Shown here piece by piece: positions 15,222-56,062 of a stretch of 64,000 bases of DNA. The notes under the pieces were generated by a model that saw only the letters and a list, made by a program, of their open reading frames with translations, did no database searches and was not told the origin of the DNA. Source of the DNA: Escherichia phage TrudiRoth; the sequence record MZ501109; one strand, 5' to 3'. A program made the translations under genes and the position numbers. Positions within the stretch are counted from its first letter, which is position 1. The number at the start of each line of letters is the position of its first letter.

Positions 15222-15671
15222 ATGAAGGCAGCTTTGCTTTTAATAGCTGCCCTAACCTATAGCTTCAATAGTCATGCGACCTACGACTCAAAGCAGATTG
15301 ATTGCATTGCAAAAAATATCTACTTCGAAGCACGAGGTGAGGGCACTAAAGGAATGATCGCAGTTGCACAGGTTACTAAAAACCGTGTTAACTCTGGTAC
15401 TTTTCCTAATTCTTACTGTAAAGTAGTATATCAGTCTAACCAGTTCTCTTGGGTGGCCAAGAGACCAAAAGTTGATAAAACCGATGAGGCTTGGCAAGTT
15501 GCTAAGAATTTAGCTAGAGTGATATACTACGTTGATTTACCACAAGATCCAACACATGGAGCGTTATACTTCCATAGTGGTAAAGATAAACCGTACTGGA
15601 CAAAGAAGTTTAAGAAAACAACGAAGATTCAAGGCCATACGTTCTACAAGCCTGTGGTTAAGAAAACTTAA
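15222..15671 (+). CDS. SleB-like cell wall hydrolase with signal peptide
   Basis: Signal peptide MKAALLLIAALTYSFNSHA and hydrolase motif NIYFEARGEG...VAQVTKNRV; ATG 15222 preferred over TTG 15204. Confidence 0.65.
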   Translation: MKAALLLIAALTYSFNSHATYDSKQIDCIAKNIYFEARGEGTKGMIAVAQVTKNRVNSGTFPNSYCKVVYQSNQFSWVAKRPKVDKTDEAWQVAKNLARVIYYVDLPQDPTHGALYFHSGKDKPYWTKKFKKTTKIQGHTFYKPVVKKT

Positions 15672-15680
15672 AAATTCGAT

Positions 15681-15709
15681 TGCTTAAAGCCTTAAATTTC
15701 TGTATAATA
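15681..15709 (+). promoter_or_regulatory. sigma70-type early promoter
   Basis: -35 TTGCTT, 17 bp, -10 TATAAT. Confidence 0.65.
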
Positions 15710-15739
15710 CTTTCATAAATTAATGAGAGGAAGCGAAAT

Positions 15740-15910
15740 ATGAAATCAGTTGTAATTATTGGTGTTAATACTCGTGGTATCCGTACTACGAAAACAGTTA
15801 AAACTACTAACGTTGCTGAAATTACTACAAACCCTAAGAAGTTTGATTTCGCTAAAGTCTCGGCAGTTATGACAGAACAATCTTTTAACCAAGCACTGGG
15901 AATTAAATAA
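15740..15910 (+). CDS. small hypothetical protein
   Basis: 56-aa ORF (below the track cutoff) behind promoter 15681-15709. Confidence 0.3.
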   Translation: MKSVVIIGVNTRGIRTTKTVKTTNVAEITTNPKKFDFAKVSAVMTEQSFNQALGIK

Positions 15911-16353
15911 TGGAAGAGAATATTCTAGATGTTTTGCGTAGGGCTTTGCAGGAATCTAAGGTTGATGGTTCTGATAAAGAAGTAGCTAAAAGCTACCAGA
16001 CCATAATCGGAGATCTTCAGCGTGTTGATAAAGACTTCATTACTTCTGAACAGTTTGTATCTTATATAAAAGCTCAACTGAAAAGCATTAATCAGACGAA
16101 AGCTAAACTTCACGGTCAAGACCTTGATAATTATAGCTTGCAGTCTGCTCAGTATGAGTATATACTGAACAAATGGCTACAACAGTATCTGCCGCCTCAG
16201 TTATCTGATTCTGAGATTCGCAAATACTTTGCAGAATTAGTTAAGTTGAACCCTGGGATTACAAAAGGTATGCTGATGAAAGCGATTAAGGAAGAGTTTC
16301 CTGGTCGTTACGACGGTGGCATTGCTGCTCAGGTTGCTGGCGAATTTAATTAA
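15910..16353 (+). CDS. GatB/YqeY-domain-like protein (putative)
   Basis: C-terminal SDSEIRKYFAELVKLNPGITKGMLMKAIKEEFPGRYDG resembles the YqeY domain. Confidence 0.45.
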   Translation: MEENILDVLRRALQESKVDGSDKEVAKSYQTIIGDLQRVDKDFITSEQFVSYIKAQLKSINQTKAKLHGQDLDNYSLQSAQYEYILNKWLQQYLPPQLSDSEIRKYFAELVKLNPGITKGMLMKAIKEEFPGRYDGGIAAQVAGEFN

Positions 16354-16361
16354 AAATTGAT

Positions 16362-16390
16362 TTGCTAAACGCCTCAAAATTCTGTATAAT
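16362..16390 (+). promoter_or_regulatory. sigma70-type early promoter driving an ORF-free region
   Basis: -35 TTGCTA, 17 bp, -10 TATAAT; no ORF of 60 aa or more for about 880 nt downstream. Confidence 0.65.
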
Positions 16391-17276
16391 AGATTCATAA
16401 ATTAGAGAACAGCGAGCCGATTACGCTGAGTGAGTTTAGTGATTCCTACTAGGATAGCTATTCCACTGAATAGAGTCGGTGAGTTTAGAATGATCACCTG
16501 TTAGAGTTCCGAGTCCAGTCCGGTATATCCGGCCAAGTGACTAGAGTAACGAATATAGGTTCGAGACTTCTTGTAAAACTCGGGAGCTGTCCCGAAATCT
16601 CGTAAACTCTTCTCTAGTTTATGTTAGTGGGGTGTCGAACTGACTTATGTGATAACACTGCCGTCCTAGTATAAACGGTAATATCAAACCGTAACTGGTG
16701 GAAGATGCAGGTTCGAATCCTGCGGTCGGAAAGAATCAGATAACTCGGGCTTATACCGGATAAGCATTCGCTGCTGGAGTACATACTATGACGGTTCAGG
16801 AGGTACGCCACCTGATCAGTATTAGGTTAGAATCGAAACAGCTAAACCACGAGGAAACCTGACGGCCTCAACCAAACTCGGAACTCGGGATCACTGCCTA
16901 GTGTGTGCCCCGTTTAACCTGAGACTAGGCATCCAGCTTCGCATCGAAAATCGGAGGTGCGATTCTAACAGACCGCGTGAATATGAGAGTGGGAAACGCT
17001 GACATGAGAGATGTCACTAATGGTGCCCAATAGTACAGGTAATTCGCGATAATTCCTGTTGAGCGGCAGCAGTAGGCTGGGAGTCATGACCTAAGCCTAA
17101 CCGAGTTCTTCACATACGGAGAACATAACCACAAAGTCACCCTGACTTAAACTGGAAGATATTGTCTGACGGAAGGGCTGCAGAGCTTAATCTGAGGGGG
17201 CTGACCCTACCTACCATCGGGTATCTTTAAGAGCTTTTTCGAGAGTTCTTAAAAATACCTAACAAAAGGAATCAAT

Positions 17277-17786
17277 ATGAATCTAGGAACAACTTGTATC
17301 TTTGATCATCAAGAAATGTGTTGCCCTCGTATTCTGCATATAGCACATTTCTCTGAACGATTGACACTTGATCAAGCTCGCGAGAAAATGAGTGAGATTA
17401 CAGGATATAATTTTCGAGAAGGTGAATACTTTAGCGTAGCTTTGGATTACATCGACAATACTCGTCTTTATCACCTAGTTCAGCTTGGTGAAGAAACTGA
17501 TGAAGTAAAAATGGCGAAAGATACATTACGTCGTTATCGCCCGCAGATTCTAGAGAGTACACTTCGCGGAGAGCCTAGTGATTACTTCTATATGCGCTGT
17601 TATGACGCAGATGCACAAGAATACATGGCACATCAACGTTTCTACCACGATATTAAAGAGTTCGTTAATATCAAGTATGACAAGCTATTGATTGACTCTA
17701 AAGCACAACGTGCAGCTAAAAATGCTGAGAAATCTGCTAAAGAAGCTGTTGAAAGTCAAACTAAATTGAATAAAGTCATTAAATGA
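17277..17786 (+). CDS. hypothetical protein
   Basis: 169-aa ORF with RBS AAGGAA after the ORF-free region. Confidence 0.5.
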   Translation: MNLGTTCIFDHQEMCCPRILHIAHFSERLTLDQAREKMSEITGYNFREGEYFSVALDYIDNTRLYHLVQLGEETDEVKMAKDTLRRYRPQILESTLRGEPSDYFYMRCYDADAQEYMAHQRFYHDIKEFVNIKYDKLLIDSKAQRAAKNAEKSAKEAVESQTKLNKVIK

Positions 17787-17794
17787 TTAACTTT

Positions 17795-17869
17795 CGGGGT
17801 GTAGTCTAAGGGATAGGCAGGAGTCTTCTAAATTCCTTTATGCAGGTTCGAATCCTGTCACCTCGGCCA
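17795..17869 (+). tRNA. tRNA-Arg (anticodon UCU)
   Basis: Hand-folded: acceptor CGGGGUG/CACCUCG, anticodon loop CUUCUAA, T-arm GCAGG-UUCGAAU-CCUGU, encoded CCA. Confidence 0.7.
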
Positions 17870-17895
17870 ATTTTATTAACTGCTAGGAAAATAAA

Positions 17896-18096
17896 GTGAA
17901 AACACGATATATAGTAAAAGTAGTAGGTGAACATTCACAAGTAAATACCACCGATGTTACAGCGCTAGCATTTGAAGTAGTCTCCGGTATAGTCATATTT
18001 CATAACGGAGATATCAAAGCTCCTGAATTTGCTGTGGATGCTAGCCTGTTTATTTCTGCAACTAAAGTAACTGTAGTAGCTAACTCTTCTAAATAA
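17896..18096 (+). CDS. hypothetical protein
   Basis: 66-aa ORF with GTG start after tRNA-Arg. Confidence 0.3.
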   Translation: MKTRYIVKVVGEHSQVNTTDVTALAFEVVSGIVIFHNGDIKAPEFAVDASLFISATKVTVVANSSK

Positions 18097-18107
18097 TAAG
18101 GAAATAT

Positions 18108-19052
18108 ATGTTTACTAAAAACACTAAAGAACTGACTTCCGATCAAAAAGTAATTCGTACTATTAAACGTTGGGGCGTTGGTGCTGTAGTTGGTCTTGGC
18201 GCTCTTATTCTGGCTCTCAATTCCTATACAGTTGTTCAGGACGGTACGGTTAAAACTCAGACTTTCCTGGGTAAAGTTAGTCCTAATCCTGTATTGCCGG
18301 GGTTCCATATTGTCAACCCATTCGCCTCTTTTGATACTTTTAGTACGAAAGATATTTCTATGAAACTGGATAAACTTCAGGTTCCTAGCCAGGATAAGTT
18401 TAAGTCCACTGTTGACATTACCGTTATGTTGCAGTTTGATGGTGCTAAAGCTCCTATGAACCGTGTTAACGCAGGTACTCAGGATCAAGCTCTGAACAAG
18501 TACGTTGAAGAGAAGATGCTATCTACGATTCGTGAGTTTGGTAAGTCTGTACCAAAAGCACAAGATCTGTTCGACGCTAAGATTCAGGCTCAACTGCAAA
18601 CTGCTATTCAGCAAGAAGTAGAAGAGTACGCGCGTCCTTATGGTTACACGGTTAAGCAAGTATTCCTTCAGGATATTACTCTGCCACCTGTAATCATGGA
18701 ACAGGTACAAAACACAAAAGTTCGTGAAGAACAAGTTAACGCCGCTAAAGCTGAATTGGCTCGTGTTGAACAAGAAGCACAGCAGAAAGTTAAGCAAGCT
18801 GAAGCTGATCGTTCTGCTCGTGAAAACATGGCAGTAGCTAACGAACGTGACGCAGATGCTAAACTGTACGCAGCTAAGAAAGAAGCTGAAGCTAACGCCG
18901 CGCTGCAACGTACCATTACTCCTGAAATGATTCGTTGGAAGCAGCTGGAAGTTGAAATGCTTCGTGCTGAAAAATACCAAGGTGGTGTACCGCAGACTGT
19001 TGTTGGTACTGGCTACGATGGTCAAATGATCATGGATATGCGTAACAAGTAA
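18108..19052 (+). CDS. SPFH/band-7 (prohibitin/HflK-like) membrane protein
   Basis: N-terminal TM segment, SPFH core and long Ala/Glu/Gln-rich coiled coil; strong terminator follows. Confidence 0.75.
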   Translation: MFTKNTKELTSDQKVIRTIKRWGVGAVVGLGALILALNSYTVVQDGTVKTQTFLGKVSPNPVLPGFHIVNPFASFDTFSTKDISMKLDKLQVPSQDKFKSTVDITVMLQFDGAKAPMNRVNAGTQDQALNKYVEEKMLSTIREFGKSVPKAQDLFDAKIQAQLQTAIQQEVEEYARPYGYTVKQVFLQDITLPPVIMEQVQNTKVREEQVNAAKAELARVEQEAQQKVKQAEADRSARENMAVANERDADAKLYAAKKEAEANAALQRTITPEMIRWKQLEVEMLRAEKYQGGVPQTVVGTGYDGQMIMDMRNK

Positions 19053-24484: not shown

Positions 24485-24587
24485 TATTCTGTGTAGAGTT
24501 AAGTAAACCGGTAGCCAACCAGCTATCATTGCTGATATCGAATTCAGTCACAGATACCATTTTTCATTAACAACTGAGGAAATAGAT

Positions 24588-25506: not shown

Positions 25507-25719
25507 AACATCAGAGCAGCGTGATGTACTGCAAAGACCCAAAGTCCGGGGTGGACTTCTTGATTCAAAGGAGCAGGCACTAATTATCATTCTAGCGTGG
25601 TGGAGAGGGGACACCAGCTTGCCGAGGGTAGAAGCTCGTTCGATTCGAGTGAAAGAATGGTTCTCGTAAATCCGCACAAGTGATAGCAGGTTCAAGTCCT
25701 GCCTAGATTGACTTATTAT

Positions 25720-25793: not shown

Positions 25794-26102
25794 AATCTAT
25801 CAAACCAAGCCTGCGCATTCGTGTAACAACTTGTGCGTCTGTAAGGTGATAGTAAACAAGCCACGGAGTTCCGGCCGTTCAACGTGGTAAAATCTTCTGA
25901 ATAACAGGTCGTGGATACCTCTTTGGAGGCTCAACGGAAACGCAGGAGTGTAAGTAAACGAAAGTTTACTTATTATGTAGGTTCCGATAGATCGGCGGGT
26001 CTATTCTGGCATTTAAGAGAAGTCTCGCAAACTTCTTTGTCAGCCGTGGGGTTGGTAGCCTCCAGGTGGCCTACACAATAAGTAAATTTATTAAAAATTA
26101 AT

Positions 26103-27763: not shown

Positions 27764-28097
27764 ATTTATATAAATTGATGCGAAAATAGCTGCCTAGATA
27801 CCAGGTGTATGACGTCTACACTAGCAGAGCTACCGAAAAAGAGATCCTCAGGATAAACGTCGTAGCAAAATTAGTCTGGTATCCATTAATTTAGTTCACT
27901 AAGGTATTAGCTCGACCTAGGACTGGCTGCCAAAAAGCACGATCCCTACGATTTGGGAGAAGTTCTAGATTAGTCCACTAGATTCAGCGGCAACTGAATA
28001 GTGTATCGGGTTTGTGAAGAGCAGCTATTCTCTACTGGCTAATGTCTGAGGTTAGTACGCACACCGAGCTAATAGCCTTAGTAAACTTAAAGAATTT

Positions 28098-28173
28098 GGG
28101 CGAATAGTGTCAGCGGGAGCACACCAGACTTGCAAGTCTGGTAGGGAGGGTTCGAGTCTCTCTTTGTCCACCA
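28098..28173 (+). tRNA. tRNA, isotype unresolved (Ala-UGC or Cys-GCA)
   Basis: Acceptor GGGCGAA/UUUGUCC, D-stem GUGU/ACAC, T-arm GAGGG-UUCGAGU-CUCUC, CCA; perfect anticodon stem CAGAC/GUCUG encloses only 6 nt (UUGCAA). Confidence 0.45.
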
Positions 28174-29535: not shown

Positions 29536-29794
29536 AAATTCTTGGAATATGCCGGAATTGGTAGACGGGACTGCCGAATAGGTTTACTAGGAACATCCAC
29601 TCCTAGAAATATACCTTAAAAGCGGTTGAGTTAAATGGTATAACTCATGAAGGTTCAAGTCCTTCTATTCCTTGATACATCAATGGCTCAAAGTGTAACG
29701 GTGCTATTTGATGCTCTTGGCAAGACTTCCCCGACATGCGTTCGGGAGTAAGCTGCTAAGACTAGAGTAGAAGAGTTTCAACAAGACAACGATA

Positions 29795-55092: not shown

Positions 55093-55112
55093 GGATAACC
55101 TGTATATAAGTC

Positions 55113-55170
55113 TGTGGATAAGTCGCCAAATCGTCGCCTATTACGTCAAGTTATTTTGTGCTGTGGATAA
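55113..55170 (-). promoter_or_regulatory. two consensus DnaA boxes in inverted orientation
   Basis: TGTGGATAA at 55113-55121 and 55162-55170; an 8/9 box AGTGGATAA at 55447-55455. Confidence 0.6.
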
Positions 55171-55831
55171 CTTTGGGGATAAGTTAAATGATAGTGGTTC
55201 TCACTTAGCCCGATAGTTTCTCATAGTTATTATTTCTCTTTAATTTATAAGTATATTATATAATATGAAATAGTTAGTTGGCTAATAGGTTTTTAGAGTA
55301 TTAATAGTCTGCTAATAATAACGCATGTTACAATCCACCAGCGTGATTATCATCCTAGCGACTATTAGCGTGCTAATGACCTGATACACGTCCAGACTTA
55401 TTTGTCAATGAAAAATAATAGCAGAAAATACTTTTTTGAAAAATCAAGTGGATAACTCATTAAATTTCATTTTTGCTTTTTGTATAAGTTATTAACAGGG
55501 TCTAAAACGCTCTGTAACGCATTCTAAGCGCCTCAAAGGAAAAGATAGGCAATCATAAGGAGTACACCGAGAAAACCTCACCACTAGCGAAATAAGTTTT
55601 GTCAAGTACCCCAAAGCAGATATAAATGAAAAAATTACTTGCTAAAATGGTTGTTTTGATGTTATTCGCGCGCCCGTTTCATTTAATTTTAGGCAGTCGC
55701 TGGACGTGGTGCGGTGGCGTTTGTCCTTACGTTTCTTTACAAAAATAAGGTTGCGCCCTTCTCGGTATTCTCCTATTATTTATCACGTAGGGCGGCAATG
55801 ACGAACTACACGGCGGAGAAGTTTACCACCG

Positions 55832-55870
55832 CGCTCTTTAAAAACTAGGGAACATCTTAAAGCCTATCGG
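55832..55870. repeat. left arm of a ~40-bp inverted repeat
   Basis: CGCTCTTTAAAAACTAGGGAACATCTTAAAGCCTATCGG; its reverse complement occurs at 56277-56315 with one mismatch. Confidence 0.85.
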
Positions 55871-55903
55871 CGGTAAACTTATATAATATAAGGAATCGAC
55901 GAT

Positions 55904-56062
55904 ATGACAACAATATTTAACGATCATCCAGCTACCCACGACACGATCGAAAAAATCGAACAATGGGTAAAGACTGCAAATGAATACTATGCTAATCATT
56001 CGGAAGCGGTAATAATCTGCAATGATGGGAATGGTTTATATGCTTTGGAGGATCTCAAATGA
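55904..56062 (+). CDS. small hypothetical protein
   Basis: 52-aa ORF translated by hand; RBS AAGGAA; stop overlaps the next start (ATGA). Confidence 0.35.
   Translation: MTTIFNDHPATHDTIEKIEQWVKTANEYYANHSEAVIICNDGNGLYALEDLK

What the first reader, a model, noticed from the sequence alone, without database searches (positions are those of the whole stretch)
16391..17276. Promoter-driven ORF-free region of about 0.9 kb with tRNA-like T-loop and long-range complementary segments
A canonical early promoter (16362-16390) opens into about 880 nt with no ORF of 60 aa or more on the + strand, in a genome that is otherwise densely coding. Composition is more balanced than the surrounding AT-rich DNA. 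It contains GCAGG-TTCGAAT-CCTGC (about 16705-16725) without a matching acceptor stem, and distant complementary pairs such as TTAGAATCG (about 16829) with CGATTCTAA (about 16965), and GCCTAGT with ACTAGGC near 16900-16930. This fits a large structured non-coding RNA better than degenerate tRNAs.
Basis: partly seen in the sequence, partly recalled or inferred. Interest (0 to 1): 0.7.

Follow-up and report, generated by a model that had tools for sequence, protein, structure and literature searches.

The report
Large structured RNA of T5-like phages
The gene-free 0.9 kb stretch encodes a large, intricately folded non-coding RNA, the counterpart of the little-studied 'RNAX' of phage T5, which sits at the head of the phage's tRNA gene cluster and has no known function.

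Summary
The window is Salmonella phage oselot, a T5-like phage. A sigma-70 promoter (16362-16390) opens into 923 nt with no + strand ORF of 60 aa or more. GC is 46% against 39% for the window.

The T5 GenBank record annotates the homologous stretch as misc_RNA rnaX, 'stable RNA with unknown functions'. It runs from promoter P16-17 to tRNA-Arg. So an RNA gene here is already on record for T5, but it is unannotated in oselot and absent from Rfam.

Comparison of homologues from six genera of Demerecviridae shows a multi-domain fold with strong covariation:
- a 5' four-helix domain with a pseudoknot;
- a universal core built on a 12-bp pseudoknot (99.6% of cells paired, 7 compensatory pairs);
- a middle domain;
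- a 3' domain of about 11 helices.

Paired cells are 89-95% against 22-50% when partners are slid.

The 'T-loop' belongs to an embedded tRNA-like module with a near-complete acceptor stem. It scores 29.3 bits and is replaced by a plain hairpin in some lineages. The long-range 9-mer pair is inconclusive.

No conserved reading frame exists, and there is no match to GOLLD, ROOL or any other large Rfam family. The function remains unknown.

The parts
16362..16390 (+). Sigma-70 promoter: -35 TTGCTA at 16362-67 and -10 TATAAT at 16385-90. The inferred transcription start is near 16397.
   Evidence: Consensus scan, 10 of 12 matches. It is homologous to T5 'promoter P 16-17', which drives rnaX, and to the 'putative P16-17-like promoter' in phage S114. 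The start site is inferred from spacing, not measured.
16397..17259 (+). RNAX-type non-coding RNA, about 863 nt from the inferred start to the end of the 3' hairpin.
   Evidence: Homology to the T5 misc_RNA rnaX. No conserved ORF. MFE z-score -4.96. Covariation. G.U cells outnumber A.C cells 254 to 58 in the modelled pairs, which fits a + strand RNA.
16397..16622 (+). Domain I. P1 16397-16409/16610-16622. P2 16410-14/16424-28. Pseudoknot between the P2 loop (16417-21) and 16475-79. P3 16429-32/16464-67. P4 16480-83/16599-16602. P5 16580-85/16590-95. Conserved joiner UAAACUC at 16603-09.
   Evidence: 14 sequences from Epseptimavirus, Tequintavirus, Sugarlandvirus, Hongcheonvirus, Novosibvirus and Priunavirus. 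90.7% of cells are paired, against 37-45% with slid partners. 21 of 34 pairs changed on both sides. 0 of 500 shuffles reached the observed value. The domain is absent from T5 itself, where only a P1 hairpin remains, and is replaced by an HNH endonuclease gene in phage fuchur.
16631..16765 (+). Universal core. P6 16631-35/16655-59. The 14-nt P6 loop (16640-53) pairs with 16735-48 to form pseudoknot PK2 (12 bp plus two conserved mismatches). P7 lies in between. P8 hairpin 16749-54/16760-65.
   Evidence: 20 sequences, including Proteus phage Stubb and Providencia phages PR1 and PSTCR5. PK2 has 99.6% of cells paired and 7 of 12 pairs changed on both sides. The whole model is 91.8% paired, against 33-50% with slid partners, and 0 of 500 shuffles reached it.
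16660..16731 (+). P7, the embedded tRNA-like module. It has an acceptor-like stem (5 of 7 pairs), a D arm, a short 'anticodon' arm with the conserved loop GUAACU, and the T arm GCAGG-UUCGAAU-CCUGC (16707-23). No CCA is encoded.
   Evidence: Rfam tRNA 29.3 bits against a cut-off of 29, the lowest of 23 tRNA matches in the window. ARAGORN does not call it here. The homologous module scores 38.3 bits in T5 and Pectobacterium DU_PP_V and 26.6 in Klebsiella K30. Non-tRNA hairpins that keep only the closing stem replace it in L004/L005, Stubb, PR1 and PSTCR5.
16766..16987 (+). Middle domain. Helix a 16773-76/16839-42. Long hairpin b 16783-16822. Hairpin e 16851-54/16866-69. Hairpin d 16939-45/16956-62.
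Evidence: 10 sequences. 88.8% of cells are paired, against 22-49% with slid partners, and 8 pairs changed on both sides. Helices a, g and d each carry compensatory changes. The region differs in sequence in the T5 type. It overlaps hairpin d by 3 nt, and its 5' partner is missing in L029.
16988..17219 (+). 3' domain. Closing GGG 16991-93 with CCC 17206-08. H1 17000-05/17011-16. H2 17023-26/17033-36. H3 17037-44/17051-57. H4 17058-61/17067-70. H5 17074-80/17091-98. H6 17105-10/17118-24. H7 17129-31/17153-55. H8 17134-39/17143-48. H9 17164-67/17175-78.
   Evidence: RNAalifold on 18 sequences and pair counts. 95.3% of cells are paired, against 32-46% with slid partners. 19 pairs changed on both sides, and 0 of 500 shuffles reached the observed value. 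Phages L005 and 1-23 replace whole hairpins but keep the joiner motifs.
17083..17090 (+). Invariant self-complementary loop GUCAUGAC, presented by hairpin H5.
   Evidence: The H5 stem covaries (helices 6 and 7). GGAGUCAUGACC is invariant in Epseptimavirus, Sugarlandvirus and Hongcheonvirus, and GUCAUGAC is invariant in Tequintavirus too. A GUCAUGAC loop also occurs in Proteus phage Stubb. The 8-mer occurs only once in the 64-kb window. A role in dimerisation or in binding a dimeric protein is inference.
17125..17157 (+). Almost invariant block AUAACCAC-AAAGUCACCCUGACUU-AAACUGGAA, covering H7 and H8.
   Evidence: Helices 9 and 10 never vary in 18 sequences. The block is conserved in the Klebsiella phages and duplicated in T5.
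17220..17259 (+). Terminal AU-rich hairpin of 16 bp, GGUAUCUUUAAGAGC-UUUUU-CGAGAGUUCUUAAAAAUACC.
   Evidence: 93-100% identical across subfamilies, far more conserved than the rest of the RNA. In most relatives it lies 2-4 nt before tRNA-Arg. It has no U tract, so it is not a terminator by the scan. It is unique in the window. The pairs never vary, so covariation says nothing about it.
17277..17786 (+). Inserted 169-aa ORF (oselot_95, hypothetical protein) between the RNA and tRNA-Arg. It is context, not part of the RNA.
   Evidence: ORF list and annotation. No Pfam or PHROG family matches. It is absent at this site in T5, S114 and Stitch, where the hairpin abuts tRNA-Arg.
17795..17869 (+). 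tRNA-Arg(UCU), the first tRNA of the cluster and in the same transcription direction. It is context.
   Evidence: ARAGORN. Rfam tRNA 49.3 bits. It follows RNAX in every lineage examined.

Best explanation
The region encodes the oselot orthologue of bacteriophage T5 'RNAX'. This is a large non-coding RNA, about 860 nt here and 645-1300 nt in relatives.

Shown:
- a sigma-70 promoter, and homology to a stretch that the T5 record annotates as a stable RNA;
- conservation across six genera of T5-like phages;
- a modular fold kept by compensatory changes, made of domain I (four-way junction plus pseudoknot), a universal pseudoknotted core, a middle domain, a 3' domain with invariant loops, and an invariant terminal hairpin;
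- peripheral elements that are swapped, lost or interrupted by mobile genes (domain I, the tRNA-like P7, hairpin interiors), while the core and the joiner motifs persist.

Inferred:
- Host RNA polymerase transcribes the RNA early, as the first product of the tRNA-cluster transcription unit.
- Where tRNA-Arg abuts the RNA, RNase P cleavage at the tRNA's 5' end makes the RNA's 3' end. The terminal hairpin then protects that end from exonucleases.
- The released RNA acts in trans as a stable folded particle. Its invariant single-stranded and loop motifs (the GUCAUGAC palindrome, the AAGUCACCYUGACUU hairpin, UAAACUGGAA, UAAACUC) are binding surfaces for itself or for a protein of the tRNA or translation machinery. 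This is my best guess for the mechanism, at roughly 30%.

In position and style it resembles the GOLLD and ROOL RNAs of other phages. The biological role is unknown.
For: Identity: the window is 100% identical to Salmonella phage oselot. The T5 record annotates the homologous stretch as misc_RNA rnaX, 'stable RNA with unknown functions', between promoter P 16-17 and tRNA-Arg. Three blocks align to T5 RNAX at 79.5-90.5% identity.

Spread: blastn finds related sequence in 526 phage records. Homologues were identified in Pectobacterium DU_PP_V, Klebsiella Sugarlandvirus, Proteus Stubb and Providencia PR1 and PSTCR5.

Structure:
- Domain I is 90.7% paired, with 21 of 34 compensatory pairs.
- The core is 91.8% paired, and PK2 is 99.6% paired with 7 of 12 compensatory pairs.
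- The middle domain is 88.8% paired.
- The 3' domain is 95.3% paired, with 19 compensatory pairs.
- Slid-partner controls give 22-50% paired in every case.

Strand: the promoter orientation, MFE z-scores of -4.96 for the + strand and -1.77 for the - strand, and 254 G.U cells against 58 A.C cells.

Non-coding: open frames are short, and similarity appears in several frames on both strands.

No terminator-like site lies between the promoter and tRNA-Arg.
Against: - No expression data for oselot were available. The 'stable RNA' label for T5 is a database annotation whose primary data I could not read.
- The 5' and 3' ends are inferred.
- Domain I and the tRNA-like module are missing in some phages, so they cannot be essential to a shared function.
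- The sequences are related, and some alignments (MAFFT) are imperfect in variable regions. The shuffle statistics therefore overstate significance.
- Part of the 3' model came from RNAalifold on the same alignment that was used for the counts.
- The terminal hairpin and H7/H8 never vary, so their pairing is untested.
- Nothing here bears directly on function.
- Two Vibrio Demerecviridae show no such RNA next to their YqeY-like gene, within 3.5 kb on either side.
Confidence: 0.85

Rival explanations
1. The stretch is a long structured 5' leader that works only in cis. It would act as a processing or folding platform for the downstream tRNA-Arg and the rest of the tRNA-cluster transcript, and would not have a function of its own after release.
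For: In every lineage it lies directly upstream of tRNA-Arg(UCU), in the same orientation, with no terminator between them. The most conserved element is the hairpin 2-4 nt before the tRNA.
Against: Protein genes are inserted between the RNA and tRNA-Arg in oselot (169 aa), in Klebsiella phages (two ORFs) and in Providencia PR1. The RNA is not lost in these phages, so close adjacency is not required. A 650-1300 nt multi-domain fold with invariant loops is far more than a tRNA leader needs. The T5 record lists it as a separate stable RNA species.
Confidence: 0.1
2. The stretch is a graveyard of decayed tRNA genes (tRNA pseudogenes) in the tRNA region, with no function as a whole.
For: It lies at the edge of a cluster of 22 tRNA genes. 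One segment is tRNA-like at the Rfam cut-off. Several annotators call it tRNA-OTHER, tRNA-Sec or tRNA-Pro in relatives. T5 carries other 'tRNA-like stable RNAs'.
Against: Only one of the modules resembles a tRNA, even at an E-value limit of 10. The other helices and both pseudoknots are not cloverleaf parts, and they are maintained by compensatory changes across genera. Decaying pseudogenes would not show this.
Confidence: 0.03
3. The stretch encodes one or more small proteins, or a protein with an unusual start, that standard ORF rules miss.
For: Gene callers have placed short hypothetical ORFs here in some relatives, such as Klebsiella Kpn02 and TrudiGerster. A 65-aa ORF on the - strand overlaps the most conserved part.
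Against: The longest ORFs with a start codon are 53-94 aa, and they differ in position, frame and strand between lineages. Peptide similarity appears in several frames on both strands at the same places, as expected from nucleotide conservation alone. G.U-tolerant pairing is conserved instead.
Confidence: 0.01
4. The conserved inverted repeats act at the DNA level, for example as an origin, a packaging or recombination site, or a homing-endonuclease target, and not as RNA.
For: The region is mosaic and is a hotspot for insertions of HNH endonuclease genes and other ORFs. The terminal hairpin is conserved in sequence rather than by covariation.
Against: A promoter reads into the stretch. Pairing tolerates G.U but rarely A.C, which is strand-specific and typical of RNA. 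Long-range pseudoknots make no sense for duplex DNA. A DNA-level role for the terminal hairpin alone is not excluded.
Confidence: 0.01

Closest known systems
Bacteriophage T5 RNAX (misc_RNA rnaX, GenBank AY543070.1, 40848..41566, 'stable RNA with unknown functions')
   Same: Same genomic slot: after the YqeY-like gene, driven by promoter P16-17, and upstream of tRNA-Arg(UCU). Alignable core, 3' domain and terminal hairpin, at 79.5-90.5% identity. Shared covarying helices. I regard the oselot RNA as its orthologue.
   Different: T5 lacks domain I, keeping only the P1 hairpin. Its middle domain has a different sequence. It carries an internal duplication of the AGUCACCUUGACUUAAACUGGAA block. Its tRNA-like module is closer to a true tRNA, at 38.3 bits and 7 of 7 acceptor pairs. 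Oselot has a 169-aa ORF between the RNA and tRNA-Arg.
GOLLD RNA (giant ornate RNA of phages and prophages)
   Same: Both are phage-encoded, very large, complex folds near tRNA islands. GOLLD has a conserved 3' region and a variable 5' region, and tRNAs sometimes lie inside the RNA. Its function is unknown (PMC12286853; PMC5737381). RNAX has a variable or dispensable 5' domain, a conserved core and 3' domain, and an embedded tRNA-like module.
   Different: No match to the Rfam GOLLD model, even at an E-value limit of 10. Different hosts (Enterobacterales) and a strictly lytic phage family. Homo-oligomeric cage formation is untested for RNAX.
ROOL RNA (about 581 nt, phages and prophages)
   Same: Both are large multi-junction folds with several pseudoknots, often next to tRNA genes in phages. 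ROOL is abundant and its function is unknown.
   Different: No match to the Rfam ROOL model. No shared motifs were recognised. ROOL has few invariant nucleotides, whereas RNAX has long invariant blocks.
tRNA, and tRNA-like modules inside larger RNAs (for example bacterial Y-RNA-like YrlA; this comparison is from my own knowledge)
   Same: The P7 module has acceptor-like, D and T arms with a canonical UUCGAAU T loop.
   Different: The anticodon arm is abnormal: a 3-4 bp stem and the conserved loop GUAACU. The acceptor stem has two mismatches and no CCA is encoded. The score sits at the Rfam cut-off. The module is replaced by plain hairpins in several lineages. No Rfam Y-RNA-type family matched.
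Other 'stable RNAs with unknown functions' of the T5 tRNA region (RNAI, RNAIII, RNAIV, RNA1, RNA2, RNA2H, RNA3)
   Same: Same genome region, same annotation source and same lack of a known function. Six of them have homologues in this window.
   Different: They are 73-172 nt long, and some are tRNA-like. RNAX is 4-10 times larger and multi-domain.

Membership tests
T5 RNAX | Lies between the P16-17-type promoter and tRNA-Arg(UCU) at the head of the tRNA cluster | tested here: met
   Promoter at 16362-90. tRNA-Arg(tct) at 17795-17869. The order matches the T5 annotation. In oselot one ORF is inserted before the tRNA.
T5 RNAX | Nucleotide homology to the annotated T5 rnaX | tested here: met
   T5 RNAX positions 8-169, 350-517 and 677-718 align to window 16605-16765, 16988-17157 and 17221-17262 at 85.2%, 79.5% and 90.5% identity.
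T5 RNAX | Secondary structure shared with T5-type sequences | tested here: met
   The core and 3' domain helices are kept through compensatory changes between the oselot type and the T5 type.
T5 RNAX | Accumulates as a stable RNA in infected cells | not testable with these tools
   The only basis is the wording of the T5 GenBank annotation. No paper on it was found in the library.
tRNA (Rfam RF00005), for the module at 16660-16731 | Score at or above the curated cut-off | tested here: met
   29.3 bits against a cut-off of 29, the lowest of 23 matches in the window; the other 22 score 32.6-69.6. ARAGORN does not call it here.
tRNA (Rfam RF00005), for the module at 16660-16731 | Seven-pair acceptor stem, and a five-pair anticodon stem with a 7-nt loop | tested here: not met
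   The acceptor stem has 5 of 7 pairs, with G1.A72 and U5.U68 mismatches. The 'anticodon' arm is a 3-4 bp stem with the conserved 6-nt loop GUAACU (sequence).
tRNA (Rfam RF00005), for the module at 16660-16731 | Kept as a tRNA in related genomes | tested here: not met
   Non-tRNA hairpins replace it in L004/L005, Stubb, PR1 and PSTCR5. Its anticodon arm is replaced by a long hairpin in Kpn02 and L090.
GOLLD RNA | Match to the Rfam covariance model | tested here: not met
   No match at an E-value limit of 10 in window 15500-18500, at a limit of 1 in the T5, Klebsiella, Pectobacterium and Proteus loci, or at gathering score over the whole window.
GOLLD RNA | Phage-encoded, next to a tRNA island, variable 5' part and conserved 3' part, tRNA sometimes embedded | tested here: met
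   Context and modularity as described. The features of GOLLD are taken from PMC12286853. This is a resemblance in style, not evidence of homology.
GOLLD and ROOL RNAs | Forms a homo-oligomeric RNA-only cage | not testable with these tools
   The only lead is an invariant self-complementary loop, GUCAUGAC at 17083-90.
ROOL RNA | Match to the Rfam covariance model | tested here: not met
   No match.
Other large structured RNAs in Rfam (RNase P RNA, tmRNA, 6S RNA, group I and II introns, OLE, HEARO, raiA) | Match to any Rfam covariance model | tested here: not met
   The only Rfam match inside the region, even at an E-value limit of 10, is the tRNA model.

The most novel reading that the evidence does not exclude
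RNAX is a third, independent family of giant 'ornate' phage RNAs tied to tRNA islands, after GOLLD and ROOL. It is found throughout the T5-like phages of Enterobacterales. On this reading it works as an RNA particle in its own right, possibly self-associating through the invariant GUCAUGAC loop. It would engage tRNAs or the tRNA and translation machinery, or the host defences aimed at them. Because T5 and E. coli are genetically tractable, this would give the first easy experimental system for asking what such RNAs do.
Probability: 0.3. Interest if true: 0.85.

Novelty: new member of a known kind. Interest (0 to 1): 0.62.

Why it matters
RNAs this large and this intricately folded are very rare outside ribosomal RNA. 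[quoted passage not shown]

GOLLD and ROOL are phage RNAs near tRNA islands. Their structures are now known, but their functions are not.

The RNA here has a similar size, position and modularity. It sits in T5-like phages, which are among the best-studied and most widely used coliphages and Salmonella phages. It is nevertheless unannotated in almost all of the roughly 500 genomes that carry it, it is absent from Rfam, and I found no paper on it in the library.

A structural model with two pseudoknots, a defined universal core and named invariant loops makes targeted mutagenesis, deletion phenotyping and cryo-EM possible. The result also warns annotators that the short 'hypothetical proteins' and the 'tRNA-OTHER', 'tRNA-Sec' and 'tRNA-Pro' calls in this gap are probably artefacts.

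Tried and rejected
- Rfam scans at lax thresholds, on the window and on four relatives, found nothing but tRNA.
- Literature searches for RNAX, T5 stable RNAs and T5 transcriptomics found nothing relevant.
- The single-sequence MFE fold does not reproduce the covariation-supported P1 or the pseudoknots, so I did not use it as a model.
- The core motif scan of metagenomes returned 28 stretches, of which 8 to 11 were real T5-like hits. The scan of bacterial genomes returned 16 stretches and no real hit. The other hits lie in what look like protein-coding genes, mostly of Clostridia and other uncultured-bacterium assemblies, and show no RNAX features. The RNA was therefore not found outside T5-like phages by this crude test.
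- tblastn with the SPFH protein and with the endolysin did not work as markers for Demerecviridae, because both proteins also occur in unrelated phages.
- I examined a functional link to the upstream YqeY-like gene (phrog_1460, annotated 'tRNA amidotransferase'). The gene lies next to RNAX in five genera. However, Klebsiella phages have RNAX without it. Two Vibrio phages have the gene inside their tRNA clusters with no RNAX nearby. The link is not obligate in either direction, and I keep it only as a weak lead.
- The terminal hairpin is not a repeated processing signal, since there is one copy in the window. The scan does not call it an intrinsic terminator.
Full report
**What the window is.** The query stretch is 100% identical to Salmonella phage oselot (MT074465.1, genus Epseptimavirus, family Demerecviridae), a T5-like phage. 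In that record nothing is annotated between the YqeY-domain gene (window 15910-16353) and a hypothetical gene (17277-17786). That gene is followed by tRNA-Arg(UCU) at 17795-17869, the first of the 22 ordinary tRNA genes in the window.

**Checking the observation.**
- The promoter is real as a consensus match: TTGCTA-17-TATAAT at 16362-16390, 10 of 12.
- The stretch 16354-17276 has no + strand ORF of 60 aa or more, and is the third-largest such gap in the window. The longest ORF on either strand is a 65-aa GTG ORF on the - strand.
- GC is 46.0% against 39.4% for the window.
- One detail is wrong. The T arm does have an acceptor-like partner stem, 16660-66 with 16724-30, forming 5 of 7 pairs. 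Rfam's tRNA model aligns a whole cloverleaf at 29.3 bits against a cut-off of 29. That is the weakest of the 23 tRNA matches in the window. ARAGORN does not call it.
- The + strand folds much better than shuffled sequence (z = -4.96). The - strand does not (z = -1.77).

**It is already on record in T5.** The T5 GenBank record AY543070.1 annotates the homologous stretch as misc_RNA rnaX: 'RNAX, stable RNA with unknown functions', 719 nt. It is driven by 'promoter P 16-17' and ends at the first base of tRNA-Arg.
- The same record lists seven smaller 'stable RNAs with unknown functions' in the tRNA region. Six of them have homologues in this window.
- T5 RNAX aligns to window 16605-16765, 16988-17157 and 17221-17262 at 79.5-90.5% identity.
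- I found no paper on RNAX in the library, and Rfam has no family for it.
- The existence of an RNA gene here is therefore known for T5. Its fold, family and function appear undescribed.

**Distribution.** blastn finds related sequence in 526 phage records, with mosaic coverage. I collected copies from these groups:
- Epseptimavirus and Tequintavirus;
- Klebsiella Sugarlandvirus;
- Pectobacterium Hongcheonvirus;
- Proteus Novosibvirus, phage Stubb;
- Providencia Priunavirus, phages PR1 and PSTCR5.

The length from promoter to terminal hairpin ranges from 645 to about 1300 nt. In every lineage the RNA lies upstream of tRNA-Arg(UCU). Two Vibrio Demerecviridae showed no such RNA within 3.5 kb of their YqeY-like gene. 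A crude motif scan did not find it in bacterial genomes.

**Structure, domain I (16397-16622).**
- P1 pairs 16397-16409 with 16610-16622 and encloses P2, P3, P4 and P5.
- The P2 loop (16417-21) pairs with 16475-79 to form a pseudoknot. Its two middle pairs change from C-G/G-C to A-U/G-C to A-U/U-A across lineages.
- On 14 sequences, 90.7% of cells are paired, against 37-45% when partners are slid. 21 of 34 pairs changed on both sides, and no shuffle reached the observed values.
- T5 itself has lost the whole domain and keeps only a P1 hairpin.
- In phage fuchur an HNH endonuclease gene takes its place.

**Structure, universal core (16631-16765).**
- A short stem, P6, carries a loop whose 14 nt (16640-53) pair with 16735-48. 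This gives 12 pairs with two conserved mismatches.
- P7 sits between the two strands, and hairpin P8 follows.
- The pseudoknot is paired in 99.6% of cells, and 7 of 12 pairs changed on both sides, in 20 sequences that include Proteus and Providencia phages.
- In oselot, T5, Klebsiella and Pectobacterium phages, P7 is the tRNA-like module. It scores 26.6-38.3 bits, against 43-74 bits for the true tRNAs at those loci.
- In L004/L005, Stubb, PR1 and PSTCR5, P7 is an ordinary hairpin that keeps only the closing stem.
- The tRNA shape is therefore a peripheral decoration and not the heart of the RNA.

**Structure, middle domain (16766-16987).** Helices a, b, e, g and d are 88.8% paired, against 22-49% in controls. 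Helices a, g and d carry compensatory changes.
It is supported.
It overlaps hairpin d, and its 5' partner is absent in one relative. It remains unproven.

**Structure, 3' domain and terminal hairpin (16988-17259).**
- About eleven helices are 95.3% paired, against 32-46% in controls, and 19 pairs changed on both sides.
- Some phages replace whole hairpins but keep the joiners.
- Three elements are essentially invariant: the loop of H5 with the self-complementary GUCAUGAC (17083-90), the block AUAACCAC-AAAGUCACCCUGACUU-AAACUGGAA (17125-57), and the terminal 40-nt hairpin (17220-59).
- The terminal hairpin is 93-100% identical even between subfamilies, and normally sits 2-4 nt before tRNA-Arg.
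- In oselot, Klebsiella phages and PR1, unrelated ORFs have been inserted between this end and tRNA-Arg.

**Strand and coding.**
- G.U cells outnumber A.C cells 254 to 58 in the modelled pairs, as expected for a + strand RNA. The caveat is that the model was built on that strand.
- Open frames are short and shift between lineages. Peptide similarity appears in several frames on both strands at the same spots, which is the signature of nucleotide conservation rather than protein conservation.

**How it probably works.**
- Shown: a promoter, a conserved modular fold, and a fixed place at the head of the tRNA cluster.
- Inferred: early transcription by host RNA polymerase; release of the 3' end by RNase P cleavage at tRNA-Arg where the two abut; protection by the terminal hairpin; and action in trans as a stable folded particle. 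Its invariant loops would bind either another copy of the RNA or a protein of the tRNA or translation machinery.
- I rate the identity and the structured-RNA part at about 0.85. I rate any specific functional reading at no more than 0.3.
- The upstream YqeY-like gene (phrog_1460; weak Pfam YqeY match; PDB 1ng6 at E = 0.04) lies next to RNAX in five genera. It is absent from Klebsiella phages that have RNAX, and present in Vibrio phages where I found no RNAX nearby. It is only a weak lead.

**Comparison with known systems.**
- It is an orthologue of T5 RNAX.
- It works like, but is not a member of, the GOLLD and ROOL RNAs. Those are phage RNAs of 580 to over 800 nt near tRNA islands. GOLLD has a variable 5' part and sometimes embedded tRNAs. 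Both form RNA-only cages, and their function is unknown. Their Rfam models do not match here.
- The rivals (a cis-acting tRNA leader, decayed tRNA genes, small proteins, a DNA-level element) are each contradicted by at least one result above. Only the cis-leader reading keeps appreciable weight.

**Verdict.** As a feature it is a new member of a known but neglected kind. The covariation-supported architecture, the family-wide distribution and the parallels with GOLLD and ROOL make it a worthwhile target.

Noticed in passing
window 17277-17786: A 169-aa ORF with no Pfam or PHROG match lies between the RNA's terminal hairpin and tRNA-Arg. T5, S114 and Stitch have nothing at this site. Klebsiella phages have two other ORFs there (108 aa in phrog_18988, plus 58 aa), and Providencia PR1 has yet another. 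The junction looks like a hotspot for gene insertion.
   Followed up: partly
L033:1016-1495 (Salmonella phage fuchur): An HNH endonuclease gene (Pfam HNH_3, phrog_99) replaces domain I of the RNA, between the promoter and the core. Other relatives, such as JLBYU43, also list HNH genes here. This suggests homing endonucleases drive the mosaic pattern.
   Followed up: partly
window 24487-24559, 25588-25712, 25975-26077, 27905-28017, 29541-29684, 29685-29779: These are homologues (90-99% identity) of T5 RNA3, RNA2, RNAIV, RNA2H, RNA1 and RNAI. The T5 record annotates all of them as stable or tRNA-like RNAs of unknown function. ARAGORN finds no tRNA gene and Rfam gives no match at gathering score at any of these positions in the window.
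   Followed up: partly
window 55099-56058: A 960-nt stretch with no ORF of 60 aa or more on either strand, the largest such gap in the window. No Rfam family reaches its gathering score there.
   Followed up: no
window 28098-28173: ARAGORN reports a tRNA with an undetermined identity and a four-base anticodon (tgca). Rfam's tRNA model scores it at 40.2 bits.
   Followed up: no
L002:3010-3170 (phage T5): T5 RNAX carries a tandem duplication of the otherwise single, invariant block AGUCACCUUGAC(U/A)UAAACUGGAA. The two copies are separated by an insert of about 60 nt that can form a hairpin.
   Followed up: no
L122 (Vibrio phage Brizo) 3468-3911; L123 (Vibrio phage JSF12) 3465-3869: The YqeY-like gene (annotated 'tRNA amidotransferase', phrog_1460) lies inside the tRNA gene clusters of Vibrio Demerecviridae as well. 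Its association with phage tRNA genes is therefore broader than its association with RNAX.
   Followed up: partly
window as a whole, against MT074465.1: The offset between the window and the record (window position = record position minus 60146) would put the window's end beyond the record's 113,503 bases. The window therefore cannot be collinear with that linear record along its whole length. It may be a permuted or wrapped copy, or a different isolate.
   Followed up: no
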